A DNA stretch of 40,631 nt. It comes from a virus. Taxonomy: Duplodnaviria; Caudoviricetes. The stretch is taken from positions 1 to 40,631 of IMG/VR virus record IMGVR_UViG_3300022930_000014; one strand, written 5' to 3'. Numbering within the stretch: the first letter of the stretch is position 1; each line of letters opens with the position of its first letter. The position numbers were made by a program, and so were the translations under genes. The notes beneath the pieces are model-generated. The model searched no databases, had not been told where the DNA came from, and worked only from the letters and a program-made list of their open reading frames with translations. This document shows, one piece after another, positions 4,327 through 30,437 of the stretch.

Positions 4327-4414
4327 GATACAAGATCGTGTGTGGAGAGTGATAGACAATTACGTCAATAAGAATAAGATAGTAGGTTTAGATATCAATC
4401 TAACCATTACTTTG

Positions 4415-4485
4415 CGGGACTAACGAGAATCGGACTCGTGCTATGTGCGTGACGGGCACACGTTCTGCCACTGAACTATAATCCC
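4415..4485 (-). tRNA. tRNA-Asp(GTC), atypical
   Basis: Cloverleaf GGGATTA/TAGTCCC, loop CC-GTC-AC (C33), T-loop TCCGATT. Confidence 0.8.
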
Positions 4486-4497
4486 TATATTTTTTTG

Positions 4498-4580
4498 TGG
4501 AAAGAAGAGGATTCGAACCTCTACAGCCTTGCGACTGGATAGTTTTCAAGACTATTGCGATACCGTTACGCCATCAATCC
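4498..4580 (-). tRNA. tRNA-Ser(TGA)
   Basis: Loop CT-TGA-AA, long variable arm, TTCGAAT; two U-U mismatches in the acceptor. Confidence 0.8.
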
Positions 4581-4636
4581 TTGAACAGACGTGTTGTTTG
4601 CAGTGCTTATTCAGAATATATCGCACCATCTGTCTG

Positions 4637-4719
4637 CGGAAAGTATAGGATTTGCACCTATGAACCCTTGCAGGTCTGCTCCTTAGCAAGGAGTTGCATT
4701 GCTACTCTGCCAACCTTCC
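4637..4719 (-). tRNA. tRNA-Ser(GCT)
   Basis: Loop TT-GCT-AA, long variable arm, T-loop TGCAAAT, G73. Confidence 0.85.
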
Positions 4720-4723
4720 ATTG

Positions 4724-4794
4724 TGGACTAATAGGGAATCGAACCCTAGACTACCCCGTGCAAAAGGGTTGTTATGCCACTTAACCAAAAGCCC
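4724..4794 (-). tRNA. tRNA-Ala(TGC)
   Basis: Loop TT-TGC-AC, G3:U70 identity pair, TTCGATT. Confidence 0.85.
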
Positions 4795-4796
4795 AT

Positions 4797-4869
4797 AAGC
4801 CAGAGCTCTTCGGATAGGAACGATGTCTAAAAAGCACCTTCCGAACAGGACTTTCGTCCACTCTGACTT
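4797..4869 (-). ncRNA. Unassigned structured RNA (three-way junction)
   Basis: AAGTCAGAG/CTCTGGCTT closing stem, GGAC-GAAA-GTCC GNRA hairpin, TTCGGA..TCCGAA arm; lies between tRNAs. Confidence 0.45.
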
Positions 4870-4870
4870 G

Positions 4871-4942
4871 CTCCTCAAGCAGGGCTCGAACCTGCGACCT
4901 TTCGGTTAACAACCGACCGCTCTGCCACTGAGCTATCAAGGA
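4871..4942 (-). tRNA. tRNA-Asn(GTT)
   Basis: Canonical cloverleaf, loop TT-GTT-AA, G73. Confidence 0.92.
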
Positions 4943-4953
4943 ATATTTATTTG

Positions 4954-5025
4954 AGCCTTATCACAGACTTGCACTGTATTCGATAGTTTACAAAACTATT
5001 GCTCTACTTCATGAGCTAATGAGGC
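4954..5025 (-). tRNA. tRNA-Thr(TGT)
   Basis: GCCTCAT/ATAAGGC, loop TT-TGT-AA, T-loop TGCAAGT. Confidence 0.82.
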
Positions 5026-5072
5026 ATTGTAGCCCTAAGCCCCGCTAGGCAGAACGAAGGACTACAGATACA

Positions 5073-5396
5073 TTATAGCATAACAGATTCCTTATGCAAA
5101 TGTATTGCTCTGTGATGTAATGGGCATACCCATATTACATCAAGTGGTTTCGAGTAATCTTCATGATGAGCTTGGACATTTTCTTTAGTCTTACACACTT
5201 CGCAAGTTCCTCGTTTTATGTATCCCTTTCTTATATGATAATTGAGCTTTGCTATTGCCTTTAGCTTTTGAGGGTATTTCTTCCTGTATCTCGTATTGGC
5301 ATTCTTTTTTGCAATGGAGGCATAGTATTTAGATTGAGTGATAACACCTTTCTCAGTCTTTTTGTATGTTTTTTGGTACACAGGATTCTTACTCAT
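5073..5396 (-). CDS. HNH-type homing endonuclease
   Basis: CEVC...VQAHHEDYSKPLDVIWVCPLHH; probable start MSKN 7 nt after TAAAAT. Confidence 0.8.
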   Translation of the reverse strand: MSKNPVYQKTYKKTEKGVITQSKYYASIAKKNANTRYRKKYPQKLKAIAKLNYHIRKGYIKRGTCEVCKTKENVQAHHEDYSKPLDVIWVCPLHHRAIHLHKESVML

Positions 5397-5489
5397 GTAT
5401 ACCATTTTATCACCTACTTGTGAAAAGTAAAGAACCCACACTGGTTATATGTGGGTTGGTGGACTTACCACCATAGTAGGCAGGGTAGC

Positions 5490-5603
5490 CTACGTGAGAT
5501 ACACCTCCTTCAAATCAGGGAAGTAGTGATACTCCCCGAAAAAAAGGTCAAAGAGCAGAGTTTGCATGTGGCGTTGGGGTGAGGGGAAGTTTTCCTCGTA
5601 CAT
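5490..5603 (-). CDS. Small hypothetical peptide (37 aa, or 25 aa from an internal ATG)
   Basis: MYEENFPSPQRHMQTLLFDLFFGEYHYFPDLKEVYLT, directly downstream of TGGTATAAT. Confidence 0.35.
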   Translation of the reverse strand: MYEENFPSPQRHMQTLLFDLFFGEYHYFPDLKEVYLT

Positions 5604-5807
5604 ATTATACCACATATTCCAAAACAAAAACACACCCCTTATCATAGGTGTGTCTTGTAATAAAATTATGCTATGTCAAACTCAAATGATGGAAGAAAAG
5701 ATTGTGGGCTCTGGTGACCCACATGGCAATTATATCATGGCAAGAAAAAAAGTCCAAGAGCACGTACTCTAATGGACTTTAGTTCTTATTACATTGTATA
5801 TGTAAAG

Positions 5808-6290
5808 TTATTCCAACTCAAGCTTTGTGTATAACTCCATGGCTTCCCTAACGTACTTGCAGCTGTCATATGGAGTTCCGTTCTTATTGATACCCTTGCT
5901 GCACGGCCTAGTGTTTCCACTATTCCACACCTTGAAGATCTGCTTAGGCGTCATTTCCTGTAGAAGCAGAGACTTGATCTCCATCTCTACTATCGGTCTT
6001 TCAAGCTCCAGTGAAAACCCCTTCACCTTTCCCAAGTGTTTCTTGGTTAGGTTTTTCCATGTACCTGGCATTATTTGAAAACAACCGTATTCCCCGTCCT
6101 TACCTCGCTTGGTACACTTTGTATCATTCTTGGTTTCTTTGTATTTTATTGTCTTAGCTATGTTTTCGACCTGCTTCTCGATGGTCACAGGTTTTTCCTC
6201 TATCGTCGGCAGCGTTGCTGGCATTTGCACAGTAGACGTTGACGACAACAAAAGCATAGGCAAAAGAGCGATTGAGTATATATGTTTCAT
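5808..6290 (-). CDS. Lytic transglycosylase (SLT/lysozyme-like) with N-terminal signal or anchor
   Basis: Catalytic ET, GEYGCFQIMPGTW, WNSG...YV motifs. Confidence 0.8.
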   Translation of the reverse strand: MKHIYSIALLPMLLLSSTSTVQMPATLPTIEEKPVTIEKQVENIAKTIKYKETKNDTKCTKRGKDGEYGCFQIMPGTWKNLTKKHLGKVKGFSLELERPIVEMEIKSLLLQEMTPKQIFKVWNSGNTRPCSKGINKNGTPYDSCKYVREAMELYTKLELE

Positions 6291-6346
6291 ATTATGCTAT
6301 AGGTGTCTGATACACACATACAACAATAGAAATTATACCACATTTG

Positions 6347-6419
6347 AGAACCGTACAGGACTTGCACCTGTGGATAACCGTTTTGCAAACGGGAGTGTTC
6401 GCTGCTTCACCAACGGCTC
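6347..6419 (-). tRNA. tRNA-Cys(GCA)
   Basis: Loop TT-GCA-AA, U73 discriminator, T-loop TGCAAGT. Confidence 0.85.
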
Positions 6420-6426
6420 TTACTTG

Positions 6427-6497
6427 TTGCGGGAAAGGGAGTCGAACCCATACGCAAGGCTTATGAAACCTTTGAACTACCGTTATTCTATCCCACA
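6427..6497 (-). tRNA. tRNA-Met(CAT)
   Basis: TGTGGGA/TCCCGCA, loop TT-CAT-AA; initiator versus elongator unresolved. Confidence 0.8.
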
Positions 6498-6773
6498 GCT
6501 GGTGACTATACAGGGAATTGAACCCTGTTTCGCGGAATGAAAATCCGATGTCCTGCCATTAGACGATATAGCCGTATCTAATTCTATCACAACCTCTCGA
6601 AACTCCGCAAGCGCTACCTCTTGAAAGTTTGGATCTCTGTACTTCTTGTACTTCTTTCTGTATTGGTATCTTGTCAAGGTATTCTTGTCTTCCGTTCTCC
6701 GGATCATCATCTTGCGGTATGAAATCAAAAACTCTCTTGAAAGTGCTTTTTTTAACTCTGGTCTACAGGACAT
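6483..6773 (-). CDS. Basic hypothetical protein whose frame runs through tRNA-Glu
   Basis: ATG 6 nt after TGTTATAAT; no in-frame stop until 6483. Confidence 0.45.
   Translation of the reverse strand: MSCRPELKKALSREFLISYRKMMIRRTEDKNTLTRYQYRKKYKKYRDPNFQEVALAEFREVVIELDTAISSNGRTSDFHSAKQGSIPCIVTSCGIE
6500..6573 (-). tRNA. tRNA-Glu(TTC)
   Basis: Loop TT-TTC-AT, encoded CCA. Confidence 0.88.
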
Positions 6774-6801
6774 GTTACAATTATAACACATCTTTATCTT
6801 G

Positions 6802-6872
6802 TCAGGAAACAAGGAGTCGAACCTTGCTTAAATGAGCCCAAGTCACTTGTGTTTCCGATACACTATATCCTG
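6802..6872 (-). tRNA. tRNA-Pro(TGG)
   Basis: C1:G72, loop CT-TGG-GC (G37), TTCGACT. Confidence 0.85.
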
Positions 6873-6945
6873 GTGCAAAAACTGGGATTCGAACCCAGAC
6901 CCCTTGCTTGGAAGGCAAGTACACTAGCCATTGTGTTATTTATGC
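6871..6945 (-). tRNA. tRNA-Gly(TCC)
   Basis: Loop CT-TCC-AA, TTCGAAT; its CCA overlaps the 5' end of tRNA-Pro. Confidence 0.88.
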
Positions 6946-7280
6946 TTATTTACTTGTATTCTATCATAAGTACGTACTCTATGGCAATTAGCACACACAA
7001 GCTCGCACTTTGCTATCTCTTCATCTATCTTTTTGATGTTTGTGCCTCTAACTGTCATTGAAGATACACTGCGAATCTTTTCTCCTATATGGTCGTAATC
7101 CATTACGCAAGCCGGAAACATACCCCCGCAATCTTTGCACGGTTTTCCTTTTTTTGTATTGTTGACATATTCTTGCAGAAGCTTTTTCTTTGCCTTGTTT
7201 CTAGCATAATACTCTTGCTTATTTTTATGGTAATGAGTAGAACTCCACACTGCTTGTTTCGTCTTGTCTTTAGTAGGCAT
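6936..7280 (-). CDS. HNH endonuclease (Zn-binding)
   Basis: PCKDCG...MDYDH...EEIAKCELVCANCHRVRT. Confidence 0.85.
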   Translation of the reverse strand: MPTKDKTKQAVWSSTHYHKNKQEYYARNKAKKKLLQEYVNNTKKGKPCKDCGGMFPACVMDYDHIGEKIRSVSSMTVRGTNIKKIDEEIAKCELVCANCHRVRTYDRIQVNKHK

Positions 7281-7281
7281 G

Positions 7282-7352
7282 TATTCCTACGTGGTGCCGC
7301 CCCACGGTAAAAGAGTTAAAAGCTCTCTATTCTACTGTTGAATTATAGGAAT
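7282..7352 (-). tRNA. tRNA-Lys(TTT), atypical T-loop
   Basis: Perfect ATTCCTA/TAGGAAT acceptor, loop CT-TTT-AA, T-loop GGCGGCA. Confidence 0.8.
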
Positions 7353-7353
7353 G

Positions 7354-7424
7354 TTCCAGATACAAGAATCGAACTTGTGACTATCGGGTTTCAACCGAGT
7401 GCTTTTCCACTAAGCTAATAAGGA
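7354..7424 (-). tRNA. tRNA-Phe(GAA)
   Basis: Loop TT-GAA-AC, TTCGATT; two acceptor mismatches. Confidence 0.75.
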
Positions 7425-7426
7425 TT

Positions 7427-7503
7427 TGGTAAACTCAGATGGATTCGAACCATCGTCAATCGCTTCGAAGGCGACCATTCTTTATCCGCTGAACTATGAG
7501 TTT
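7427..7503 (-). tRNA. tRNA-Arg(TCG)
   Basis: AAACTCA/TGAGTTT, loop CT-TCG-AA, encoded CCA. Confidence 0.88.
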
Positions 7504-7504
7504 G

Positions 7505-7575
7505 TAAGCATACCTGGATTTGCACCAAGATCAGAGGCTTAGAACGCCTTTATTCTTCTATTAAACTATATGCCT
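7505..7575 (-). tRNA. tRNA-Arg(TCT)
   Basis: AGGC/GCCT anticodon stem, loop GT-TCT-AA, T-loop TGCAAAT. Confidence 0.75.
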
Positions 7576-7576
7576 G

Positions 7577-7648
7577 TAGTCACAGCAGGACTTGAACCTG
7601 CAACCTACGCTGTGTAAAAGCGTCGCTCAACCATTGAGCTATGCGACT
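7577..7648 (-). tRNA. tRNA-Val(TAC)
   Basis: Canonical cloverleaf, loop TT-TAC-AC. Confidence 0.9.
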
Positions 7649-7654
7649 GTATAG

Positions 7655-7725
7655 TAGTCCTATTTGGAATCGAACCAAAGCCACCTGTGTATAAGACAGG
7701 CTCTCTGCCACTGAGATATAAGACC
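7655..7725 (-). tRNA. tRNA-Ile(TAT)
   Basis: CCTGT/ACAGG stem, loop CT-TAT-AC, TTCGATT. Confidence 0.82.
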
Positions 7726-7730
7726 ACATT

Positions 7731-7836
7731 CTGCAAACAGTGGTAACGAACACTTCCACAATCGAGTTTGATACACTTGCGTGCTTTGCATGGTTCACTC
7801 CATATTCGATTTGAATTGCATTTCTGCTGTTTGCAG
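7731..7836 (-). ncRNA. Unassigned ~106-nt structured RNA
   Basis: Perfect 10-bp closing stem CTGCAAACAG/CTGTTTGCAG, internal AATCGA/TCGATT stem and small GNRA hairpins. Confidence 0.55.
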
Positions 7837-7837
7837 G

Positions 7838-7910
7838 TAGTACTCGGAAGACTTGCACTTCCACTCTCACAGGTATCAGCCGTGTGCTTCACTATTTAAG
7901 CTAGGGTACT
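7838..7910 (-). tRNA. tRNA-Ile(GAT)
   Basis: Loop CT-GAT-AC, T-loop TGCAAGT. Confidence 0.82.
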
Positions 7911-7917
7911 GTTTTGT

Positions 7918-7992
7918 TGGTTTCAGAACTTGGATTCGAACCAAAGATTCACGAGGTCAAAGCTCGGTGTACTGCCATTATACGATTCTGAA
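7918..7992 (-). tRNA. tRNA-Gln(TTG)
   Basis: U1:A72, loop CT-TTG-AC, encoded CCA. Confidence 0.88.
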
Positions 7993-7995
7993 TTG

Positions 7996-8072
7996 TGGTA
8001 CTCTATACAAGACTCGAACTTGTAGAACTTCGTTTCTAAGACGAATGCGGTTACCAATTACGCCAATAGAGT
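7996..8072 (-). tRNA. tRNA-Leu(TAG), short variable loop
   Basis: ACTCTAT/ATAGAGT, loop CT-TAG-AA, 5-nt variable region, encoded CCA. Confidence 0.85.
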
Positions 8073-8086
8073 ATTATATGCAAAGG

Positions 8087-8158
8087 TCAGATAAGAGGAA
8101 TTATGAGACCTCAACGACTCCTTCACAGGGAGTGATTTTTCTCTTAAACTATTACCTG
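8087..8158 (-). tRNA. tRNA-His(GTG)-like, aberrant T arm
   Basis: ACTCC/GGAGT stem with CT-GTG-AA loop; enlarged T-loop; no G-1:C73. Confidence 0.6.
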
Positions 8159-8185
8159 GCTTTTGCATATATTGTAAAGAACTAG

Positions 8186-8287
8186 TGGGGAAAGTGATAG
8201 CTAATCACCATGCTTTATAATTGGAATGAAAGCACTACCATAGGTACTTTAACGTCATTTGCGTTGTCCAATCCGCATAATTTCCCC
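8186..8287 (-). ncRNA. Mini tmRNA-like or cloverleaf RNA (unassigned)
   Basis: GGGGAAA/TTTCCCC-A acceptor-like stem, GGATTGGAC, frame GCA AAT GAC... = ANDVKVPMVVLSFQL*. Confidence 0.4.
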
Positions 8288-8326
8288 GTTCCCCCCAATA
8301 ATTCTCTATATTTTTTAATGTGCTTG

Positions 8327-8395
8327 CAAGCATGACAGGAGTCGAACCTGTTATCTTCAGTTTTGGAGACTTGGAGTGTCCTCACACCCACACTT
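8327..8395 (-). tRNA. tRNA-Trp(CCA), degenerate D arm
   Basis: Loop CT-CCA-AA, ACAGG-TTCGACT-CCTGT, G73; truncated D-loop and bulged anticodon stem. Confidence 0.65.
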
Positions 8396-8399
8396 ATTC

Positions 8400-8459
8400 T
8401 AGGCAACAAAATGTTATTTGATTTTAAGTCAAGTTTTTTGTGGTTGCTGTACGTGCCTA
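8400..8459 (-). ncRNA. Y-RNA-like unit 4 (UACAGCAA class) with an anticodon-like hairpin
   Basis: UAGGCA-CG-UACAGCAA...UUGA-CUUAAAA-UCAA...UGCCUA. Confidence 0.6.
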
Positions 8460-8470
8460 TAAGTATTGCT

Positions 8471-8563
8471 AGGTACAATCGTATTATAACTCTACGACTG
8501 AGTTCTGTTCTTTCGAACATAACGCCAAATGTTATTGATTGGTTTTTTTTGCTGTATGTACCT
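8471..8563 (-). ncRNA. Y-RNA-like unit 3 (UACAGCAA class) with two hairpins
   Basis: AGGUACA-UACAGCAA...GUUC-GAAA-GAAC, GUCGUA..UACGAU...UGUACCU. Confidence 0.65.
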
Positions 8564-8579
8564 TGGTTATGTAAAGACT

Positions 8580-8697
8580 AGATTCGGTTGTTTTTCGTGC
8601 TCTACCAACTGAGCTACTCTGCCCGAAGGCAGAGGTTGGACTCGAACCAACGACCGCGACCTTAAAATGGTATTTTTTATTTTTGCTGTACGAATCT
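8580..8697 (-). ncRNA. YrlA-like Y RNA unit 2 (circularly permuted tRNA mimic)
   Basis: AGAUUCG-UACAGCAA, then T arm GUUGG-UUCGAGU-CCAAC, acceptor CUCUGCC-UUCG-GGCAGAG, UA, D arm GCUC-AGUUGGUA-GAGC, closing with CGAAUCU. Confidence 0.8.
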
Positions 8698-8710
8698 TTA
8701 TTGAAATATC

Positions 8711-8808
8711 TATGCTCTTTTAAGTGCCTTTACCTGTTAGGCTATGGGGGCGTACTGTGCCCCCACTTGGACTCGAACCAAGAATATTATTGTTGCTGTA
8801 TGAGCATA
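8711..8808 (-). ncRNA. YrlA-like Y RNA unit 1 (circularly permuted tRNA mimic)
   Basis: UAUGCUCA-UACAGCAA, then T arm CUUGG-UUCGAGU-CCAAG, acceptor UGGGGGC-loop-GCCCCCA, UA, D arm GCCU-AACAGGUAA-AGGC, closing with GAGCAUA. Confidence 0.8.
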
Positions 8809-8827
8809 ATTTCAATGTTCTCTCTAC

Positions 8828-8855
8828 ATTATACCACTAAGCGAGAATCTTGCAA
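8828..8855 (-). promoter_or_regulatory. Sigma70-type promoter for the Y-RNA/tRNA array
   Basis: TTGCAA-16 nt-TATAAT with an extended TG, overlapping the DUF2828 stop codon. Confidence 0.6.
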
Positions 8856-10273
8856 TATCTCTCGCTGTTGATAACGTCAAGCATTGTCTGCTCAGGAGTC
8901 TTGTTTTCGACAACTAGCTTGAATGTACTTTGACTTGATCCTGATACTAGAGATGTTCCTCCTTCCCCTTCTGTAACCGGTACTTGCTTGTTTCGAGCGT
9001 CTACATTCCAAAATACAAGGTGTGGTCGTTTGTATCCAGCATTCTTGTACATTTGGTCTATGAACTCGAAGTTTGTAGACTCATGTCGTGTTGCAGAATC
9101 AAACTCCATGTCTGAAATGATGTATACAGTCGAAGGCATTTCGTCCTCGCTTGTCTTGTTTGAGATGGCAACGTTCAAGATAGTACCGAACACCTTTTCG
9201 ATGTTCGTGCTCATTTGCCAAGAGGCAGTCTCGATGCTGTTCATTTTCTCTCGAATGTTTTTACCTACAACTTTTTGTAGTCTTGGTTCTGAACTGAAGG
9301 TCATGAAGTAATCCTTGAATTGACCCTTGTTCCGTTCAGCAAAGTACAATGCAAGTGATACTGACATACTCATAGGAGTTCCACTCATAGAACCTGACAC
9401 GTCTGCCACCACAAGGGCGTTGTTGCCTCGAGTATAGTCAGGAAGTGCGTTCCATAGTGCGTCTAGAGCCTTCACATCGTCACCTTTCTTCACAGCGTCG
9501 TAGATTTGGTAAGTAGAAAGAGTTCCAGCGTTGATCGTAGCTTCGCCTTTCTCCACTTTCTCCATGAACTTCGCATATCGAACACTATCGTTTTTCTTAA
9601 ACGCCTTTCGATACTTGAATCCAGCCTGAGAAGGAAGTTTTGAGTAGTCAATACCGTCGTAGTTTTTGTTTGTGATTGGAGTTTCTACGATGTTTATTGC
9701 AGCTCTAAGCTTTGTAAGAGTTTGTCGGTAAGACTTTGGGGTTGCACCAAGAGCCTTTCGGATAACTGTTGCAAGTTTTTTTGTAGCTTTTGAAGTCGCG
9801 TTTTCTGAAGGTAGCCATTTAGCAAGAAGAGAAATCGATTCTCCCTTTTGCATAGCTGTGTAGTCGTCAGCAAGTGTGTCTTGAATGATAACCATCACCT
9901 TCTCCTTTACAGAGTCAACATCGGCAAGAGACACAAGATCGTCGTATCGTCCGTATTCTTTAATGAAGTCAAGAACACTTACAAGCTCGTCAGGATATTC
10001 TGAAGCTAGAACCTTCAATCCGTTTCGGAACAAAGTTCTTTCTCCTTGTCCCCCTCGAATATCTCGGAAGTAGAACAGTGTTCGAATAGCACCTACTTTA
10101 TCGTAGGCTAGTGCTTTCTTGAACAAGTCCATTCCAAGCTCAGGATTCTTTCGTGTTGATCCACCTAGAGCGAAAAAGTCTAGCAATGGGTTTTGGCTTG
10201 ATAGGTGAGTTGCAGCTCCGTTTTCTGTTGTTGTTTTGTTTGTAGCGTTAGCTAGGTTTTTTATGAATGTCAT
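8837..10273 (-). CDS. TROVE/Ro60-like protein (DUF2828 family) with C-terminal vWA domain
   Basis: TENGA, LLDFF, RDIRGGQGER, YGRYDDL, SLLAKWLPSE, YRKAF; MIDAS DVSGSM...ISDMEFD...FWNV...VSG; probable start MTFIK. Confidence 0.85.
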   Translation of the reverse strand: MTFIKNLANATNKTTTENGAATHLSSQNPLLDFFALGGSTRKNPELGMDLFKKALAYDKVGAIRTLFYFRDIRGGQGERTLFRNGLKVLASEYPDELVSVLDFIKEYGRYDDLVSLADVDSVKEKVMVIIQDTLADDYTAMQKGESISLLAKWLPSENATSKATKKLATVIRKALGATPKSYRQTLTKLRAAINIVETPITNKNYDGIDYSKLPSQAGFKYRKAFKKNDSVRYAKFMEKVEKGEATINAGTLSTYQIYDAVKKGDDVKALDALWNALPDYTRGNNALVVADVSGSMSGTPMSMSVSLALYFAERNKGQFKDYFMTFSSEPRLQKVVGKNIREKMNSIETASWQMSTNIEKVFGTILNVAISNKTSEDEMPSTVYIISDMEFDSATRHESTNFEFIDQMYKNAGYKRPHLVFWNVDARNKQVPVTEGEGGTSLVSGSSQSTFKLVVENKTPEQTMLDVINSERYCKILA

Positions 10274-10277
10274 AATT

Positions 10278-10454
10278 TTATTGTCTTTCTTTATTGTTTG
10301 ATATATATAGTCGCCATTCTGGTCCTTCAGCACCTGTCACCTCAATATACAAGTTTCCATCTTCGTCCAATGCGTGAGTAAAACTTGAATGATAATTCTC
10401 TGTAGCTGGTACTACAATGACTTGTATTATTTTAGGTGTCTTTTTTTGTGCCAT
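10278..10454 (-). CDS. Small hypothetical protein (58 aa) upstream of the Ro-like gene
   Basis: MAQKKTPKIIQVIVV...; ATG 6 nt after TATACT. Confidence 0.55.
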   Translation of the reverse strand: MAQKKTPKIIQVIVVPATENYHSSFTHALDEDGNLYIEVTGAEGPEWRLYISNNKERQ

Positions 10455-10460
10455 GTATAA

Positions 10461-10506
10461 AGTATATCAGCACTGTTACAAGTGTCAACAACCTGCATGT
10501 GGATAA
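10461..10506 (-). promoter_or_regulatory. Promoter (TTGACA-16-TATACT) with an upstream DnaA-box-like TTATCCACA
   Basis: Direct motif match; similar element at 17042-17096. Confidence 0.6.
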
Positions 10507-10634
10507 CTTATGATGTGTGATCTTCGCCTACGCTGAAAAGGTATTCTCTGAAGTCCTTGCTGAATACGCACAAGAGGACTATTGTCAGTAAAATTGCTGG
10601 TGCCACCACTATTCCGAATATTAGGTATAGAACG

Positions 10635-10814
10635 CTAACGAAATGTTTCGTCATATATTTTCTTGCGTATGTCCTTGAGGTTAATGTTGTACTTCGCCAT
10701 GAATCTTGATATCTGCTGCTTGTGCTTTTTGAAGCCATGAGAACACTCTGTCGGGGATAGTCCTTTCGACAATGCTTTCTTTAGATTTTTAACTGTTAGC
10801 TCTGGTGTTTTCAT
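10635..10814 (-). CDS. Small basic hypothetical protein
   Basis: 59 aa MKTPELTVKNLKK..., overlaps the end of rusA. Confidence 0.45.
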   Translation of the reverse strand: MKTPELTVKNLKKALSKGLSPTECSHGFKKHKQQISRFMAKYNINLKDIRKKIYDETFR

Positions 10815-11175
10815 ATGATTTTATGTGTATTTCAATTCTTGGAGTTTCTTTATCGTACAGCTTCTCGATAGTCATTCTCTTGATCTGGCTGTCGTCTTCC
10901 CAAACTATGCCGGTCAATGCGTCAAAGCTGAGCTTGTTGAAGTTATCTATGTCAGCCTTCCGTCTAGTGCCAAAGTAGATCTTCAGGTCTATATCCAAAT
11001 CATTGTCTAAGGGCATAGAATGCCACTGGGACGAAGCTTGTCTTATATATGAGTCCTTTATCGTCTTGCCGTCCTTACTCATGTACATGCTTGCAAATCT
11101 GCCCCTGCATGTCATTTTGTAAATATGGCTAGTACTCTTCGGTTCACCGAGCAATGTTATCGTGCTGTATTCCAC
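10789..11175 (-). CDS. rusA: RusA-family Holliday junction resolvase
   Basis: DIDNFNK...DALTGIVWEDDSQI...PRIEI motif. Confidence 0.9.
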   Translation of the reverse strand: MEYSTITLLGEPKSTSHIYKMTCRGRFASMYMSKDGKTIKDSYIRQASSQWHSMPLDNDLDIDLKIYFGTRRKADIDNFNKLSFDALTGIVWEDDSQIKRMTIEKLYDKETPRIEIHIKSYENTRANS

Positions 11176-11211
11176 GTATATATTATACCACACTATGAAT
11201 GTTCTTTCTAG

Positions 11212-11295
11212 TCGAAGAAGAAGGATTTGCACCTACGAAGCCCGAAGGCAACTCGTTTACAGCGAGCCATGTTTGTCTACTTCATGTATTCTCCG
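11212..11295 (-). tRNA. tRNA-Tyr(GTA) with C1:G72
   Basis: Loop CT-GTA-AA, variable arm GCC-TTCG-GGC, A73. Confidence 0.85.
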
Positions 11296-11301
11296 ATATT
11301 G

Positions 11302-11374
11302 TTTACCCGCCCAGACTTGCACTGGGAGCTTTCAGTTTTTGAAACTGTTACGTCTACTATTCCGTCACGGATAA
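11302..11374 (-). tRNA. tRNA-Leu(CAA), short variable loop
   Basis: TTATCCG/CGGGTAA, loop TT-CAA-AA, T-loop TGCAAGT. Confidence 0.8.
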
Positions 11375-11383
11375 TCAATGTCA

Positions 11384-11740
11384 TTATACACCACTCTTGA
11401 TGTGATTGTACAGCTGCTTGAACGTTTTCAACGGAATATCCTTTCCACTCTTGTCAGTAACAGATCCTTTCTTCCATGACTTTCCCCAGTCAAGATCGTA
11501 TATGTAATATCCAATGTAATCATACCTATCGTGCATAAGTTCGGTAATGAGTTGGAATATGTGTGTATGTACCCAGCCAAAGTTGAAACCACAAAAGTCT
11601 TTGTCTAGTATCTTGAACGCATTGTCAATACGCTGAACGTCCTTGTCGAACTTCTTCAGCTTATCCATATGCTTCTTGAATGTCTCGAAAGACGGGAATG
11701 GAAAATATCTTTTTGGTATGTGTTGTTTTGCTTTTTTCAT
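11384..11740 (-). CDS. Hypothetical phage protein
   Basis: 118 aa with YYIYDLDWGK...IPLKT..QLY pattern. Confidence 0.65.
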   Translation of the reverse strand: MKKAKQHIPKRYFPFPSFETFKKHMDKLKKFDKDVQRIDNAFKILDKDFCGFNFGWVHTHIFQLITELMHDRYDYIGYYIYDLDWGKSWKKGSVTDKSGKDIPLKTFKQLYNHIKSGV

Positions 11741-11992: not shown

Positions 11993-12148
11993 TTAGTTTC
12001 TGTTTTTTGAACTAGTTGCCGTGCACACAGAACCACCACATTCCTTTTTGCTTCGAGCGTCAGCAATTGAGGCAAGAACGATTGAGGATAGTATTCCTAT
12101 GATTGCAATTACAACGAGAAGTTCGATTAGTGTGAATCCTTTTTTCAT
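11993..12148 (-). CDS. Miniature type IV prepilin-like protein (51 aa)
   Basis: MKKG|FTLIELLVVIAIIGILSSIVLAS class III signal/N-methylation motif, short CxxxxC tail; missing from the ORF track. Confidence 0.85.
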   Translation of the reverse strand: MKKGFTLIELLVVIAIIGILSSIVLASIADARSKKECGGSVCTATSSKNRN

Positions 12149-21876: not shown

Positions 21877-21899
21877 ACAAAATGTGGTATAATGCGACA

Positions 21900-22232
21900 A
21901 TGGACGATACAGAGAAACAGGATAAAAAACAATATGATTGGCTTAGAGGATACCAATTCGTCAAAGGACAGTCAGGAAACCCAGGAGGAAGACCAAAGGG
22001 AAAGTCTCTCAAGACTTTTGCTAAGGAATACCTAGAGTCGCTTCCTGATTCAGAGAAGATTGAATACCTAAAGACCCTTCCTGCTGAAATAGTATGGAAG
22101 ATGGCTGAAGGAAACCCTGATACCAAGTCTGACACGACTACAACCGTGGTAGTGGTAGACAAGGAAGCCAAGGAGAAGGCGGATAAGGTAATACAAGACT
22201 TTCTACATGGAAATACAGGAAATACTCAATAG
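21900..22232 (+). CDS. terS: Terminase small subunit (putative)
   Basis: F.KGQSGNPGGRPKG motif, directly upstream of terL. Confidence 0.7.
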   Translation: MDDTEKQDKKQYDWLRGYQFVKGQSGNPGGRPKGKSLKTFAKEYLESLPDSEKIEYLKTLPAEIVWKMAEGNPDTKSDTTTTVVVVDKEAKEKADKVIQDFLHGNTGNTQ

Positions 22233-23790
22233 CGAAGATATAAAGGCACAGAAGGCTTTGTTCTGCTTTGATGGCAGCAATACTGAAGACCAGGTTGTAT
22301 TCAAGTTCGGCATATGGGGCAGACATCTATTCCCAAAGTATTTCAAAAGCAAGGACGCAAAGTTCCATCATGACATCAACGTATTAAACTACAGGGTGTA
22401 TCGTGGTGTTGAGCTTGAGCAGTTTGTTAACATAGCATTTCGTGGAGCAGGAAAAGACGTGAAGACCAAACTCTTCATTGCTTTTGTCATTCTCAACGAT
22501 ATGGAACACTCGAGAAAGTATTTCAAGGTTCTTGCTGAGGACGGGGACAACTCAAAGCAGTCCGTGACCGACATCTACAACATGCTTGTGAATCCAAACG
22601 TGACTAGAATGTATCCCGAGACATTCGCCAAGACGGTCTACAAGCGCGAGGAGACTATGGGAAGCTTTACTACAGCTACAAACATCAAGGTGGTGGCTGA
22701 TACTGTCGGTACGGAGCAACGTGGAGCTATTCAGGAGGAAACCAGACCCGACTTCATATGGTTCAACGACTTCGAGACTAGAAAGACGCTTCGATCCACT
22801 GTTATCACCAAGGCAATATGGGACAACATGGAAGAGGCCAGGACGGGATTGGAAAAGGGTGGAGGATCTGTATACACATGCAACTACATTTCCGAACTGG
22901 GAAATGTTCACAAACTTGTAACTGAGAAGCTGTCGGCTCGGAAGCATATTCTCATTATCCCTATCTGGATCGGAGGAGTTCCTGTATGGGACAGATACAC
23001 GGTTGCTGACATAGAGCATATGAAGGCGACTGACGACGACTTCGAGGGAGAGCGAGAGTGCAAGCCGAGTGCCTCAAAGGATATTCTGTTTGACAGAGAA
23101 AAGCTTGAGACCATGGTTGCAAAAGTTCCAGTAAAGACCACTGCTGATTTCAGGATATACAAGCTATTCAACCCAGGGCACAGATATGGATCGGGACATG
23201 ACGTTGCCGGCGGTGTGGGGCTTGACTCCTCAGCTTCTGTATTCATTAACTTCAGCGTCATTCCTGCCGAGGTTGTTGCCACGTTTGCAAGCAATACCGT
23301 GAAGCCCGAGGACTTTGGAGACGAGATATTCAGAGAGACTGAGATGTTTGGTGGAAACCTTGCCGCCATCGAGAACAACAAGTTTGACATGACAGTGCTT
23401 AAGGCAAAGCAACATGAGGTTAACCTATTCGCATACAAGAAAGGAAAGGCAACTCAGGTCAGAAGCACCAACACGACTAAGGATTACGGCTGGAATACGA
23501 ACTCGCTCACAAAGCCGAAGATGTTTTTCGGATTGCAGAAGGCTGTCAACGACGGATTGCTTATCTTGAACGACCCAGCACTTATCAAAGAGGCTAAGTC
23601 ATACTCAAGAAATGACCTAATGGACAAGGAAGAGGATCCAAGAGACATAACTAACACGACAAGGCACTTCGACTTGCTCACTGCATGTGCGATTGCATGG
23701 CAAATGAAGGACTTCGCAGAGGAAAGTAGCGAGGAAGAGGAGGAAATTATAGATGAAGACGAGCCTTTGTATCCAGATATTGGCGTTTAG
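22207..23790 (+). CDS. terL: Terminase large subunit
   Basis: AFRGAGK, RG...RPD.I..DFE ATPase motifs; GHDVAGGVGLDSS, IENN, HFDLLTA nuclease motifs. Confidence 0.9.
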   Translation: MEIQEILNSEDIKAQKALFCFDGSNTEDQVVFKFGIWGRHLFPKYFKSKDAKFHHDINVLNYRVYRGVELEQFVNIAFRGAGKDVKTKLFIAFVILNDMEHSRKYFKVLAEDGDNSKQSVTDIYNMLVNPNVTRMYPETFAKTVYKREETMGSFTTATNIKVVADTVGTEQRGAIQEETRPDFIWFNDFETRKTLRSTVITKAIWDNMEEARTGLEKGGGSVYTCNYISELGNVHKLVTEKLSARKHILIIPIWIGGVPVWDRYTVADIEHMKATDDDFEGERECKPSASKDILFDREKLETMVAKVPVKTTADFRIYKLFNPGHRYGSGHDVAGGVGLDSSASVFINFSVIPAEVVATFASNTVKPEDFGDEIFRETEMFGGNLAAIENNKFDMTVLKAKQHEVNLFAYKKGKATQVRSTNTTKDYGWNTNSLTKPKMFFGLQKAVNDGLLILNDPALIKEAKSYSRNDLMDKEEDPRDITNTTRHFDLLTACAIAWQMKDFAEESSEEEEEIIDEDEPLYPDIGV

Positions 23791-23850
23791 ACACAGAACA
23801 TGGTATAATACACGCAACATAATCTTAATTGAACGGGTAACTTCAATTAA

Positions 23851-25821
23851 ATGAACATATCCAAAGACAAACTAGACAAAATCCGAGCTCAAGTAGGCAA
23901 TGAAATCATTTTTTCACGTAACTATAAGCAACCTAAAGTTTATAACACATGGCAGAAGAACGAAGACCTTGCATATCAAAGAAAGATAACGACGCAAGAC
24001 GCTACGAGAACCAACATTGACCTTGGTCGCGGGGAGGAATACATTTCAACGTTGCTTTCAAAGATCGACAACTCAATCACGTTCAAGTTCAAGAAAAGAA
24101 AAGACTCTCAATTGCAGCGAGTGCAGAGACTGAACGCGTTGAAGCTTATCGACCAGCAAAACGACGACTGGGACATCAAGGACTTGGCAGGAAAGGAGCA
24201 AATGATTGTCTACGGGCGAGCAATCTTTTCATACTATGCAGAATCGGTAGACGGAATATACAAACCACACCTAGAAAACATCGACGTGTATGATTTTCTT
24301 ATTGACCCCTCAGCTGGAGGCATTGACCTTGAGAGGGCTTTTTATATGGGAAACTACGGGGTTATAAAGACGAAGGAGGATTTGAGAGCAGGAGTCAAGG
24401 CTAAGATCTACATGAAGGCAGAGACAGAGAGACTTATCGAGGGGAACGGAAACGCTGACGAATTGTCACAGGAAGAATCAAACAAGAGAAACAGACAGTA
24501 CGCACAGGGAACTACATCAGGGCAAAAGCAGATCGTGGACACTGACAAGTACGTGTTTTGGCGATGGTTCACTACGTTCGAGGGGAAGAGATACTACATG
24601 CTTATCCAGGAATCTTCAGGGGCAATCATTGAGATTGACGAGATGGAGAACAGATTCGCCTCAGGGCTGTATCCGTATTGGACATATGCACGACGACCGT
24701 CGCTCACAGAGTTCTGGACACCGTCTCCACTTGACGGAGTTCGTGAGATTTTCTACACGCAGGCCGTATCAATCAACCAGGCAGTGGATAACTCGGAGCA
24801 AATCAACAACCCACAAAGAATCGTGAACGTGGGAGCTATCGGAAACCTTTCAGAGCTTAAGTACAAGAGAAACGGAATCATTCGGGTGAAGGGAGACATT
24901 GACATCAACCGCGCGTTCCAAACTGTAATCACTCCGTCTATTGACAACCCTATCAAGGTGTTTGACAAGCTAGAGGCTATTCAGGAAAAGGCTTCAGGAC
25001 TTTCAGGAGGAAGCAAGGGTGTCGCAGAAGAGGACAAGGTAGGAATCTATGAAGGAAACCAAGCCAACGCTGCTGACCGGTTCGGACTTTACAACAAGTC
25101 ATACTCATTCGGATACAAGAGATTCGGAACGCTGTACCAGTGGGGAGTCCGGGAGCACCTCACGAAGAAGGTTGCGGTCGAGATGATCGGACCAAACGGA
25201 GTATCTCAGGAAGAGGTAGCACGACGTGACATCTTCAGAAAGAATGAGGACTTCACGGTGAGTGCGGAATCTTCGCAGGCTGAGATTGCATTGAGCGAGA
25301 CCGACAAGAAGAACAAATTGCAGTTCCTGACGGCAAACATGGCGAACCCAACCCAGAATCCAAAGAAGGCGTACGAGACATCGGCAACCATCGTAGGATT
25401 CGGTGAGGAGGAAATCAGGGAGCTTATGGACACGTCGGACTTCGGAGACGCGCAGCTCATGAGCGAGGCTGAGAGGGACATAGAGGACATCCTGGACGGC
25501 AAGAGGGTCAAGCCCAACCCGGGCGCGACAACCGCATACAAGCAGCGATTCGTTGACTTCATGCAGCACAACGAGGACGACATGGACGACCTGCAGAAAA
25601 TGCGAATGTTCGCATACGTGGAATCGCTAGACCAAATCATTATCTCGAACATGGCTCGGATGATGAACAACAAGATCATGAAGCAGCAGTTGGAGATGGC
25701 AAGCGTTCCCTCAGAACAGCCACCCAACGGGACAGCAATTCCACCAGGAGGAGAAGGCACGGGTATGCCTTTGCCGCCAACAACAGATCCATTAACAGCT
25801 AACGCCCCAACGGGGATATAA
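23851..25821 (+). CDS. Portal protein (P22/podovirus-like)
   Basis: 656 aa after terL; DFLIDP, INQ.VDN....NNP pattern; Pro-rich C-terminus. Confidence 0.85.
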   Translation: MNISKDKLDKIRAQVGNEIIFSRNYKQPKVYNTWQKNEDLAYQRKITTQDATRTNIDLGRGEEYISTLLSKIDNSITFKFKKRKDSQLQRVQRLNALKLIDQQNDDWDIKDLAGKEQMIVYGRAIFSYYAESVDGIYKPHLENIDVYDFLIDPSAGGIDLERAFYMGNYGVIKTKEDLRAGVKAKIYMKAETERLIEGNGNADELSQEESNKRNRQYAQGTTSGQKQIVDTDKYVFWRWFTTFEGKRYYMLIQESSGAIIEIDEMENRFASGLYPYWTYARRPSLTEFWTPSPLDGVREIFYTQAVSINQAVDNSEQINNPQRIVNVGAIGNLSELKYKRNGIIRVKGDIDINRAFQTVITPSIDNPIKVFDKLEAIQEKASGLSGGSKGVAEEDKVGIYEGNQANAADRFGLYNKSYSFGYKRFGTLYQWGVREHLTKKVAVEMIGPNGVSQEEVARRDIFRKNEDFTVSAESSQAEIALSETDKKNKLQFLTANMANPTQNPKKAYETSATIVGFGEEEIRELMDTSDFGDAQLMSEAERDIEDILDGKRVKPNPGATTAYKQRFVDFMQHNEDDMDDLQKMRMFAYVESLDQIIISNMARMMNNKIMKQQLEMASVPSEQPPNGTAIPPGGEGTGMPLPPTTDPLTANAPTGI

Positions 25822-25823
25822 CA

Positions 25824-26219
25824 ATGACAAACAACTACAAGATACTTAAAAAAAACAAGGAGAACGCTATTGATTCGCTGATTGAGAAAGACGGAATCAC
25901 GGCACAGTTCACGGCACGGCAGGTTATCCAGCATGAGATTCAGCTTAACAAGCAGGTGCTCGAGATGGAGGGAAACATAGAATTGCACGAGGCCAAGACC
26001 TCGAACATCCTATCGAACAACCCATTCCTAGCCACGCTTACCGAGGAGCAAATGCACGCCACTCACATGTACTTCGAGTCAATGGCTTTCATAAAGGGAG
26101 CCAAGGACAAGGTGAAGGAAATCGAGAAGGTCCTGCGACAATACAAGAAGGAAAAGGCGGAGATAGAGAAACAAACCGGAGTAAAGTTCGAAGACGTAAA
26201 ACTAGATGCCACAAAATAA
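25824..26219 (+). CDS. Hypothetical protein
   Basis: 131 aa in the head module. Confidence 0.65.
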   Translation: MTNNYKILKKNKENAIDSLIEKDGITAQFTARQVIQHEIQLNKQVLEMEGNIELHEAKTSNILSNNPFLATLTEEQMHATHMYFESMAFIKGAKDKVKEIEKVLRQYKKEKAEIEKQTGVKFEDVKLDATK

Positions 26220-26511
26220 GCCAAGCAAAAAAGAAATACGGAAAGACCTTGGGGAAATGAATGCGCTGAACGCCGTGAAGAACAGCGAGGGGGGCAAAAT
26301 CATTATCAAGCGTTCGCTAGCCGACATACTGTCGACTCTCGACTCCCTTGCAAGCGGATATCCCATTCTCTCGCACATACAGCTCGTATCGCTGTGCGCG
26401 CGGCTCAAGGAAAGGCTGGACATCTACAGAGCCCTGAACAACTCGGACGCGAACATACAGCTTGCGGAAGAGGCACTCGAGGAGGCACTGAAGGAAGACC
26501 CGGATCTTTAA
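26206..26511 (+). CDS. Hypothetical head-module protein
   Basis: 101 aa with the NSEGGK motif typical of post-portal ORFs. Confidence 0.65.
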   Translation: MPQNKPSKKEIRKDLGEMNALNAVKNSEGGKIIIKRSLADILSTLDSLASGYPILSHIQLVSLCARLKERLDIYRALNNSDANIQLAEEALEEALKEDPDL

Positions 26512-26593
26512 CATCTGACGCACTTGTAGGGTGCGTTCTGCTCTGAATCACTAAAGGATTACCCGTTCCCTTTGGCTCATGGCAGAACATACC

Positions 26594-26622
26594 TTGCAAC
26601 CTAAAAGAATGTACGGTATAAT
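26594..26622 (+). promoter_or_regulatory. Promoter upstream of scaffold/capsid
   Basis: TTGCAA-17 nt-TATAAT. Confidence 0.65.
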
Positions 26623-26726
26623 ATTAACAACAGGTCGTAGGGATACGATAAATCTTTTGCAGCATGATAAGCTGTTCCGAAAGGAGAATGAGATCCGTCT
26701 GGTTAGACGATACCTAATTTTTCAAT

Positions 26727-27524: not shown

Positions 27525-27569
27525 TCGTGAGAACGGGGTTAATTTTAATCTAAACATTAAAAACCCAAC

Positions 27570-28763: not shown

Positions 28764-28784
28764 CCTAACCTACCTACCAATCAT

Positions 28785-29387: not shown

Positions 29388-29458
29388 TTTGACTATTCGG
29401 CTCCTAATAGGGGTCGGATTAGCTACGCTAATTTATAAAAAATAACATTCAAACAACA

Positions 29459-30436: not shown

Positions 30437-30437
30437 T

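What the first reader, a model, noticed from the sequence alone, without database searches (positions are those of the whole stretch)
4415..11374. A ~40-kb phage carrying a near-complete minimal tRNA set (24 tRNAs, all 20 amino acids)
Seen: every four-codon box has exactly one U34 tRNA (Ala UGC, Gly UCC, Pro UGG, Thr UGU, Val UAC, Ser UGA, Leu UAG, Arg UCG), and the split boxes are covered by one tRNA per amino acid (two for Ile). This resembles organelle/mollicute superwobble sets. Only Leu UUA lacks an obvious reader. Known: large tRNA arrays are typical of much bigger phage genomes. Inference: the phage can replace the host tRNA pool, for example after host-defence or phage-driven tRNA destruction in a reduced-genome host.
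Basis: partly seen in the sequence, partly recalled or inferred. Interest (0 to 1): 0.75.

Follow-up and report, generated by a model that had tools for sequence, protein, structure and literature searches.

The report
Tiny phage's near-complete tRNA set
A complete 40.5-kb phage, likely of an ultra-small Patescibacteria bacterium, carries 24 predicted tRNA genes for all 20 amino acids, at little more than half the smallest genome size (72 kb) in a published survey of such clusters, and it likely uses them as a backup pool for making its virion proteins, whose genes almost never use the one codon the set cannot read.

Summary
Confirmed. The window is a whole circular phage of 40,498 bp. It has 24 minus-strand tRNA genes (4414-11374) for all 20 amino acids: 20 at ARAGORN default, 22 at Rfam gathering score, Trp and His only at relaxed settings. 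A published survey found clusters of 15 or more tRNAs only in 72-617 kb genomes. It is rare, not unique: 1 of 25 capsid relatives (44.8 kb, complete) has a similar array. The host is likely Patescibacteria (18 of 30 capsid-bearing genome contigs). Ile-UAU, Arg-UCG and Gly A73 match the decoding of two such genomes. Late genes avoid UUA, the one unread codon (8 of 494 Leu codons, against 40 of 339 elsewhere). Against full replacement: one initiator-like Met, heavy AAG/GAG use without C34 tRNAs, several odd identity elements, no RNA data, no tRNA nuclease found. Best reading: a backup tRNA pool against host tRNA loss (0.5). New variant of a known kind.

The parts
4414..4485 (-). tRNA-Asp(GUC)
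   Evidence: 60.1 bits; G73
4497..4580 (-). tRNA-Ser(UGA); A73 instead of G73; two U.U acceptor mismatches, also seen in G023
4636..4719 (-). tRNA-Ser(GCU)
4723..4794 (-). tRNA-Ala(UGC), G3.U70 present
4870..4942 (-). tRNA-Asn(GUU), U1:A72
4953..5025 (-). tRNA-Thr(UGU)
5073..5441 (-). HNH-type endonuclease gene inside the array
   Evidence: PHROG 2340, E 5e-22
6346..6419 (-). tRNA-Cys(GCA), U73
6426..6497 (-). the only tRNA-Met(CAU); initiator-like (U1:A72, G2:C71, A11:U24, A73) with 2 of the 3 anticodon-stem G:C pairs
6500..6573 (-). tRNA-Glu(UUC), CCA encoded
6801..6872 (-). tRNA-Pro(UGG)
6871..6945 (-). tRNA-Gly(UCC) with A73, as in the two Patescibacteria genomes read
6936..7280 (-). HNH endonuclease gene; homologues in arrays G023 and G003 (42-44%)
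   Evidence: PHROG 3106, E 4e-26
7281..7352 (-). tRNA-Lys(UUU) with a non-standard T loop
   Evidence: (45.2 bits)
7353..7424 (-). tRNA-Phe(GAA), 3 stem mismatches
7427..7503 (-). tRNA-Arg(UCG)
7504..7575 (-). tRNA-Arg(UCU) with G32, shared with arrays G023 and G051
7576..7648 (-). tRNA-Val(UAC)
7654..7725 (-). tRNA-Ile(UAU), lysidine-independent type
7836..7910 (-). tRNA-Ile(GAU)
7918..7992 (-). tRNA-Gln(UUG), U1:A72
7996..8072 (-). tRNA-Leu(UAG), short variable arm
8085..8158 (-). tRNA-His(GUG); no G-1, A73, enlarged T loop; weakest call
   Evidence: ARAGORN -mt only; the same acceptor type recurs in G003 and 8 other phage arrays
8326..8395 (-). tRNA-Trp(CCA), G73; below Rfam cut-off
   Evidence: 25.2 bits
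8400..8459 (-). Y-like RNA 4: closing stem plus UACAGCAA motif, short loop
8471..8563 (-). Y-like RNA 3: closing stem plus UACAGCAA motif
8580..8697 (-). Y-like RNA 2: closing stem, motif, permuted T-arm / closed acceptor / D-arm domain
   Evidence: Rfam YrlA 48.3 bits, E 1.2e-8, below gathering 69; fold
8711..8808 (-). Y-like RNA 1: closing stem, motif, permuted tRNA-like domain
   Evidence: fold
8837..10270 (-). DUF2828/DUF7788 protein, 477 aa, predicted Ro60 fold
   Evidence: Pfam; PHROG 850; model pLDDT 87; the 11 listed Foldseek hits at E <= 1e-3 are all Ro60/TROVE
11211..11295 (-). tRNA-Tyr(GUA) with C1:G72 (archaeal/eukaryotic type)
   Evidence: (36.4 bits)
11301..11374 (-). tRNA-Leu(CAA), short variable arm
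   Evidence: (47.4 bits)
11383..11412 (-). sigma-70-like promoter site heading the array; similar TG-TATAAT sites near 11192, 8836, 6788, 6342, 5737, 5614, 5080, and a TTGACA/TATACT site at 10488
   Evidence: consensus matches only
11993..12148 (-). 51-aa prepilin-like ORF; N-terminus 70-79% identical to pilins of Patescibacteria genomes; host marker
21882..40598 (+). virion module; nearly free of UUA, the codon the array cannot read

Best explanation
This is an intact 24-gene tRNA cluster in a complete 40.5-kb phage that likely infects a Patescibacteria bacterium, and it likely serves as a backup tRNA pool that keeps virion-protein synthesis going when host tRNAs are cut or run short. Shown: the genes, one U34 tRNA per four-codon box, Ile-UAU and Arg-UCG in place of the lysidine and inosine tRNAs, and near-absence of UUA from late genes. 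[quoted passage not shown] The trigger, a host anticodon nuclease, is assumed by analogy and was not identified. The pool is likely near-sufficient rather than sole: Met, and G-ending Lys/Glu/Gln codons, probably still draw on host tRNAs.
For: Completeness and size. Host: 18 of 30 genome contigs with a capsid homologue are titled Patescibacteria, several 120-570 kb long; pilin match. Fit to host decoding: neither G058 nor G059 yielded Arg-ACG or a lysidine-type Ile tRNA; both have Arg-UCG plus GCG and Gly A73, and G059 has Ile-UAU. In the class of G059, TilS is over cut-off in 4 of 81 genomes, MnmG in 0 of 41, and an Ile-UAU pattern rings in 36 of 41 (reversed control 16 of 41). Codons: UUA is 8 of 494 Leu codons in late genes against 40 of 339 in the rest, p 7e-10; 8 of 9 array-less relatives use it at 14-68% in the same module. 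G051 (no Leu-UAA) uses 1-3%; G003 and G023 (with Leu-UAA) use 14-35%. CGA is 68% of CGN codons against 3-27% in 8 of 9 array-less relatives. Selection on the genes: odd features recur in other arrays (G32 in Arg-UCU, short-arm Leu, A73 His); C follows the discriminator in 24 of 24; promoter-like sites run through the array. Precedent: phage tRNAs rescuing infection from tRNA-cutting defences (PMC11464382, PMC11555353, abstract openings in a search listing; PMC10264068, results section).
Against: No expression or charging data. Late genes favour G-ending AAG (64%) and GAG (50%), and shift towards G at Lys, Glu and Gln, although only U34 tRNAs are encoded. UUA avoidance is not specific: host G059 uses it at 5%; 8 of 80 capsid loci are at 3% or less, and array-less L012, L013 and L023 are at 4-5%. 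Across 27 other arrays, lacking Leu-UAA did not lower UUA use (medians 0.33 and 0.31, p 0.9; many are fragments). G023 has an array but no tuning towards G34 codons. Anticodon loops differ from the two hosts in 13 of 24, against 13 of 33 between the hosts themselves, so there is no excess. A RloC-like ATPase family was found in only 2 of 61 class genomes. The window has the most stem mismatches of the 29 phage arrays and 2 host sets compared (0.96 per tRNA). Tyr C1:G72, Ser-UGA A73 and His without G-1 break bacterial identity rules (PMC9976931, passages). 24 of 25 relatives have 0-2 tRNAs, so the family does not need the array. One capsid homologue sits in a 684-kb Acidobacteriota contig.
Confidence: 0.5

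Rival explanations
1. Capacity supplement: no tRNA attack is involved. The array boosts a small, slow host's tRNA supply and evens out decoding differences among host lineages.
For: Hosts have 0.7-0.8 Mb genomes with mostly single-copy tRNAs. AAG and GAG preference suggests host C34 tRNAs stay in use. No excess of anticodon-loop change. RloC-like genes are scarce in the class sample.
Against: A supplement need not cover all 20 amino acids once each with no duplicates. It does not explain the late-specific loss of UUA, since both hosts read have Leu-UAA, nor the linked Ro60-like module.
Confidence: 0.27
2. Passenger cassette: an old phage tRNA array spread by its HNH endonucleases, now partly decaying, with only some genes working.
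For: Two HNH genes lie in the array. G023 and L385 share gene order, so arrays move between genomes. The window has the highest mismatch load and odd Tyr, Ser, His, Lys and Trp genes. The array is patchy in the family.
Against: No amino acid is lost and no anticodon is duplicated. All 24 keep 7-nt anticodon loops with A or G at 37. Gly A73 and Ile-UAU fit the host lineage. Late codon use tracks the set.
Confidence: 0.13
3. Full takeover: the phage itself destroys host tRNAs and runs late translation only on its own 24, like an organelle, with one Met serving both initiation and elongation.
For: 99.6% of codons are readable if four-way wobble is allowed. Virion genes nearly lack UUA (4 of 307). 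The Met has a paired U1:A72 with initiator marks. Likely hosts lack MnmG.
Against: No RNase or host-shutoff gene was recognised, though many small ORFs have no family. 19% of codons would need four-way wobble, and AAG/GAG are favoured. Terminase and portal each keep one UUA.
Confidence: 0.1

Closest known systems
Phage tRNA gene clusters (Morgado and Vicente 2019, PMC6409571; passages read)
   Same: At least 15 tRNAs at 2 or more per kb (here 24 in 6.96 kb); mostly one tRNA per codon box; HNH genes inside.
   Different: The 228 published clusters lie in 72-617 kb genomes and only 8 cover all 20 amino acids; this genome is 40.5 kb. It has Arg-UCG without Arg-ACG and Ile-UAU without a lysidine-type tRNA, as in the likely hosts.
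Phage tRNAs as counter-defence (T5 against PARIS, PMC11464382, and against retrons, PMC11555353: abstract openings in a listing; PMC10264068: results section read)
   Same: Phage-encoded tRNAs that could replace cleaved host tRNAs; one recurrent loop change (G32 in Arg-UCU).
   Different: No defence system is identified here, and overall loop divergence from hosts is not above the host-to-host level. No RNA ligase is encoded.
Mollicute and organelle minimal tRNA sets (Mycoplasma mobile Ile-UAU, PMC3575796; TadA-less Mollicutes, PMC3711424; abstract openings in a listing)
   Same: One U34 tRNA per family box, Ile-UAU, Arg-UCG; a single Met as in animal mitochondria (recalled).
   Different: No reader for UUA; the set is an add-on in a cell with about 40 tRNAs of its own, not the only pool; four-way wobble is untested.
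Ro60/Rsr with YrlA Y RNAs (Chen 2014, PMC4201824; Thermus phage phiLo Ro60, PMC12135203; passages read)
   Same: Predicted Ro60 ring fold with a vWA domain; adjacent small RNAs closed by a terminal stem; two have the permuted T-arm, acceptor, D-arm domain.
   Different: The protein is DUF2828/DUF7788, 11-16% identical to solved Ro60s. The RNAs carry YACAGCAA, not the GNCGAA motif, and score below the YrlA cut-off. GenBank already names homologues 'Ro-like RNA binding protein' in mycobacteriophages; the 60 evenly spread records of 709 are all 70 kb or larger.
Dictyostelid Class I RNAs (Kjellin 2021, PMC7919456; passages read)
   Same: Short stem joining the ends, a conserved unpaired motif beside the 5' strand, variable loop.
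   Different: Eukaryotic. The motif letters were not in the passages seen, so a sequence match is recalled only; Rfam gave no such hit.

Membership tests
Phage tRNA gene cluster (PMC6409571) | 15 or more tRNA genes | tested here: met
   20 by ARAGORN default, 24 in all
Phage tRNA gene cluster (PMC6409571) | density of 2 or more tRNAs per kb | tested here: met
   24 genes in 4414-11374 = 3.4 per kb
Phage tRNA gene cluster (PMC6409571) | lies in a virus genome, not a host fragment | tested here: met
   circular 40,498 bp with portal, capsid, adaptor and tail fibre genes
Phage tRNA gene cluster (PMC6409571) | genes expressed and charged | not testable with these tools
   no RNA holder listed
Organelle/mollicute minimal decoding set | one U34 tRNA in each four-codon box | tested here: met
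   8 of 8 boxes
Organelle/mollicute minimal decoding set | every sense codon has a reader | tested here: not met
   UUA has none; 48 of 11,584 codons
Organelle/mollicute minimal decoding set | Met supplied for both initiation and elongation | tested here: inconclusive
   one Met with mixed, mostly initiator marks
Organelle/mollicute minimal decoding set | unmodified U34 allowing four-way wobble | tested here: inconclusive
   MnmG found in 0 of 41 likely-host-class genomes; modification state itself not testable
Organelle/mollicute minimal decoding set | sole tRNA pool of its compartment | tested here: not met
   likely hosts encode 36-41 or more tRNAs
Ro60 + YrlA | Ro60 fold (helical ring plus vWA) | tested here: met
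   predicted model; top Foldseek hits Ro60, TM 0.35-0.58
Ro60 + YrlA | TROVE sequence family membership | tested here: not met
   Pfam gives DUF2828 and DUF7788, no TROVE; no PDB sequence match
Ro60 + YrlA | GNCGAA Ro-binding motif in the 5' strand | tested here: not met
   UACAGCAA instead in 4 of 4 elements
Ro60 + YrlA | permuted tRNA-like domain in at least one RNA | tested here: met
   8580-8697 and 8711-8808; Rfam score below gathering
Ro60 + YrlA | protein binds the RNAs | not testable with these tools
   linkage only: motif 166 times on the gene's strand against 7 opposite within 800 nt of 160 loci
Patescibacteria phage | relatives integrated in Patescibacteria chromosomes | tested here: met
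   18 of 30 contigs; whole virion module in 568-kb and 378-kb contigs
Patescibacteria phage | direct link (CRISPR spacer, own provirus, infection) | not tested
   no spacer search run; no integrase recognised

The most novel reading that the evidence does not exclude
Small phages of Patescibacteria carry a self-sufficient, mitochondrion-like decoding kit: 24 barely modified tRNAs with four-way wobble and one dual-use Met, guarded by a second kind of Ro/Y-RNA particle. Late genes are recoded to fit it, so virion synthesis runs without the host's tRNAs. This would point to an undescribed tRNA-destroying defence in bacteria that mostly lack CRISPR.
Probability: 0.18. Interest if true: 0.85.

Novelty: new variant of a known kind. 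Interest (0 to 1): 0.6.

Why it matters
It moves the lower size limit for all-20-amino-acid phage tRNA clusters from 72 kb (PMC6409571) to about 40 kb, with a second complete case at 44.8 kb. About 17% of a small genome is spent on translation support, which implies strong selection. Why phages carry tRNAs is a long-open question, and this family offers a natural comparison: near-identical virion modules with and without arrays, and arrays with and without Leu-UAA. If the counter-defence reading holds, it predicts tRNA-cutting immunity in Patescibacteria. Anticodon choice and Gly N73 may also help assign hosts to uncultured phages.

Tried and rejected
Fragment of a larger phage: rejected (terminal repeat). 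Assembly error: not seen (that run may be the source, so it is not independent). Such arrays are common at 40 kb: not supported. Of 28 Arg-UCG contigs of 61 kb or less, picked from 120 loci, 27 are estimated 5-31% complete and one (G143) 74%. CheckV underestimates this family (complete G023 is listed at 50%), so G003 and G051 (40%, 46%) stay undecided. Arg-UCG as a Patescibacteria marker: rejected, 28 of 52 large arrays with it also have Arg-ACG. Leu-UAA against UUA use over 27 arrays: no association. Excess anticodon-loop change: not seen. TadA in hosts: inconclusive, the Pfam family also takes other deaminases (18 of 41). Origin of the tRNAs: unresolved, about 55-58% identity to phage and host sets alike. 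tmRNA: none at default settings; relaxed calls look spurious. Expression: no RNA holder listed. The capsid tree was the quick tree only; the window has no well-supported named neighbour. Cultured phages gave only single-tRNA matches to the G051 array; the window's own array was not used as that query. Paper searches for a prior description (on arrays and Patescibacteria; 17, 53, 54, 61, 71 on DUF2828/Ro60) showed none in the listings; the library is open-access only and no supplements were read. Table S3 of PMC6409571 may bear on the size limit.

Full report
OBSERVATION. ARAGORN finds 20 tRNA genes on the minus strand. Rfam adds Leu-CAA and Lys-UUU above its cut-off. Trp (25.2 bits) and His need relaxed settings. 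The window is the whole virus record, with a 126-nt terminal repeat and a 40,498-bp unit. It encodes an SU10-like portal and adaptor, a major capsid protein, tail fibres, DnaC/DnaD-like replication genes, RusA, NinB and a YqaJ exonuclease; no integrase was recognised. Contigs of one DNA run, possibly the source, match 4300-11500 without a difference.

HOW UNUSUAL. Morgado and Vicente (PMC6409571, passages) found clusters of 15 or more tRNAs in 228 virus genomes, all 72-617 kb, 8 of them with all 20 amino acids. Among capsid relatives, 304 were found and 80 kept; I scanned the 25 records of 25 kb or more. One, G023 (44,773 bp, terminal repeats), has 23 Rfam matches and the other 24 have 0-2. 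With relaxed ARAGORN, G023 reaches about 28 tRNAs and all 20 amino acids. It has no DUF2828 gene. Two linear records of similar style, G051 (40 kb, 22 tRNAs) and G003 (36 kb, 23), may or may not be small genomes. A pattern scan for Arg-UCG gave 120 loci; 52 of the 80 with full flanks hold 15 or more tRNAs, but 27 of 28 checked contigs of 61 kb or less look like pieces of larger phages. So large arrays are common in large phages and rare, not unique, at 40-45 kb.

HOST. Capsid homologues occur in 30 genome contigs; 18 are titled Patescibacteria (Saccharibacteria, Parcubacteria, Paceibacteria, Uhrbacteria, Gracilibacteria), 4 are unnamed and 8 are other phyla, one of these a 684-kb Acidobacteriota contig. 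The virion module is syntenic in the 568-kb contig of G059 (portal 60%). The 51-aa prepilin ORF matches pilins of the four small genomes at up to 70-79% and the Acidobacteriota genome at 42-54%. The host is therefore likely, not proven.

FIT TO THE HOST. G058 and G059 yielded 36 and 41 tRNAs. Both have Arg-GCG and UCG and no ACG, and two CAU tRNAs each (initiator and elongator); G059 has Ile-UAU. In the class of G059, TilS passes its cut-off in 4 of 81 genomes, MnmG in 0 of 41, and an Ile-UAU pattern rings in 36 of 41 (control 16 of 41); all are incomplete genomes. The phage set needs neither lysidine nor inosine. Its Gly has A73, like 5 of 5 Gly tRNAs in G058/G059 and 6 of 6 arrays that I grouped with it by capsid or DUF2828 similarity, while 22 of 31 Gly tRNAs in other arrays have U73, the usual bacterial determinant (PMC9976931). 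Within the class, 7 genomes show A73 and 15 show U73, which hints at a sub-lineage.

ARE THE GENES ALIVE? For: all 24 have 7-nt anticodon loops and C after the discriminator; Ala keeps G3.U70, Cys U73, Asn and Gln U1:A72. Several oddities recur elsewhere: G32 in Arg-UCU in G023 and G051 but in none of 19 host and other-array copies; short-arm Leu in many arrays; His with C1:G72 and A73 in G003 and 8 others. Promoter-like sites are spaced through the array. Against: the window has the highest mismatch load (0.96 per tRNA; others 0.08-0.91), Tyr has C1:G72, Ser-UGA has A73, and Lys and His have abnormal T loops. The single Met carries initiator marks (G2:C71, A11:U24, A73) on a paired U1:A72; no typical elongator Met is present.

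CODONS. Of 11,584 codons, 54.8% pair exactly with a phage anticodon, 25.7% by ordinary wobble, 19.1% would need four-way wobble and 0.4% (UUA) have no reader. UUA is 8 of 494 Leu codons in late genes and 40 of 339 in the rest (p 7e-10), while third-position use in four-codon boxes is alike in both. In the same module 8 of 9 array-less relatives use UUA at 14-68%; the ninth is 55% GC. G051, without Leu-UAA, uses 1-3%; G003 and G023, with it, 14-35%. CGA dominates CGN (68%). Against: host G059 also uses little UUA (5%), some array-less loci are at 4-5%, G143 uses 16% with no Leu-UAA seen, and 27 other arrays show no link. Late genes prefer AAG and GAG without C34 tRNAs, which fits continued use of host tRNAs.

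THE MISSED MODULE. A 477-aa DUF2828/DUF7788 gene sits inside the array. Its model (pLDDT 87) matches Ro60 structures best, and GenBank names homologues Ro-like in mycobacteriophages. Downstream lie four small RNAs, each a stem of about 7 bp followed by UACAGCAA; two contain a permuted tRNA-like domain and one hits YrlA below cut-off. Near 160 DUF2828 loci (not deduplicated) the motif occurs 166 times on the gene's strand and 7 times opposite. In 102 of 127 distinct elements anchored by an independent 3' motif, a variable stem position pairs in 91% against 47% in shuffles, as A:U 47, G:C 20, U:A 19 and C:G 5 (relatedness not corrected). Ro60 of Thermus phage phiLo binds its Y-like RNAs and slows host PNPase in vitro (PMC12135203, passages). 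Two earlier notes of this scan describe the same family on other DNA, so it is not new to the scan; I found no paper on it.

MECHANISM. Most likely the array is a backup pool, made and charged by host enzymes, that sustains late translation when host tRNAs are cut or scarce, with the Ro-like particle limiting RNA damage or decay (0.5). Jumbo phages pair tRNA arrays with RNA-repair genes, Ro/TROVE among them (PMC7824862, passages). The trigger is unidentified: RloC-like genes occur in 2 of 61 class genomes and loop divergence from hosts is not in excess. Rivals: plain supplement (0.27), HNH-spread passenger in decay (0.13), full phage-driven takeover (0.10).

VERDICT. It is not a member of the organelle-type minimal sets (UUA unread, not the sole pool). 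New variant of a known kind; interest 0.6.

Noticed in passing
window 8400-10270; L085-L164 and L385-L464: Widespread small-RNA family (terminal stem plus YACAGCAA) beside DUF2828 Ro60-like genes; covarying stem; no Rfam family at gathering score; layout like dictyostelid Class I RNAs.
   Followed up: partly
L173-L182, L185, L189 (genome contigs): A tight clade of phage virion modules (capsid 85-96% identical, syntenic) sits in 12 Patescibacteria-type genomes, those measured ranging from 40 to 55% GC; a very successful prophage or a domesticated, gene-transfer-agent-like element.
   Followed up: partly
window 11993-12148 (-): Truncated 51-aa Patescibacteria-type prepilin; could interfere with pili or block superinfection. 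Not seen in 9 array-less relatives or G023.
   Followed up: partly
window 12228-13055 (-) and 19077-19742 (-): Band-7/SPFH gene and a second vWA gene. The Band-7 gene also occurs in array phage G003. A link of Band-7 to RNA-repair operons is recalled, not checked.
   Followed up: no
window 5808-6290 (-): 160-aa ORF inside the array with a signal-like N-terminus and a motif recalling lytic transglycosylases (recalled); no family hit.
   Followed up: no
window 4584-4633, 4797-4869, 5028-5066, 7728-7836 (-): Four spacers between tRNAs fold into closed hairpins (up to -28.7 kcal/mol); two share CTGCAAACA. No Rfam hit; possible further small RNAs.
   Followed up: partly
G058, G059 and class sample: These Patescibacteria lack recognisable TilS and MnmG, use Ile-UAU and Arg-GCG/UCG, and a sub-lineage has Gly A73; host initiator tRNAs have A29:U41 and A1 opposite A72 or U72.
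   Followed up: partly
G023 (L197) and L385: Two arrays share gene order (Ala Trp Gly Pro Gln Arg Asn Asp His Lys ... Thr Cys), one with and one without a DUF2828 gene, so arrays travel as cassettes.
   Followed up: partly
G143 (L265): 36.6-kb contig, 74% complete by CheckV, with 28 tRNAs for 20 amino acids and no protein match to the window: a possible third, unrelated small-phage case.
   Followed up: partly
L166 4191-4540: The provirus-like region in G059 carries two phage-type tRNAs (Asp, Gly) just before its terminase.
   Followed up: no
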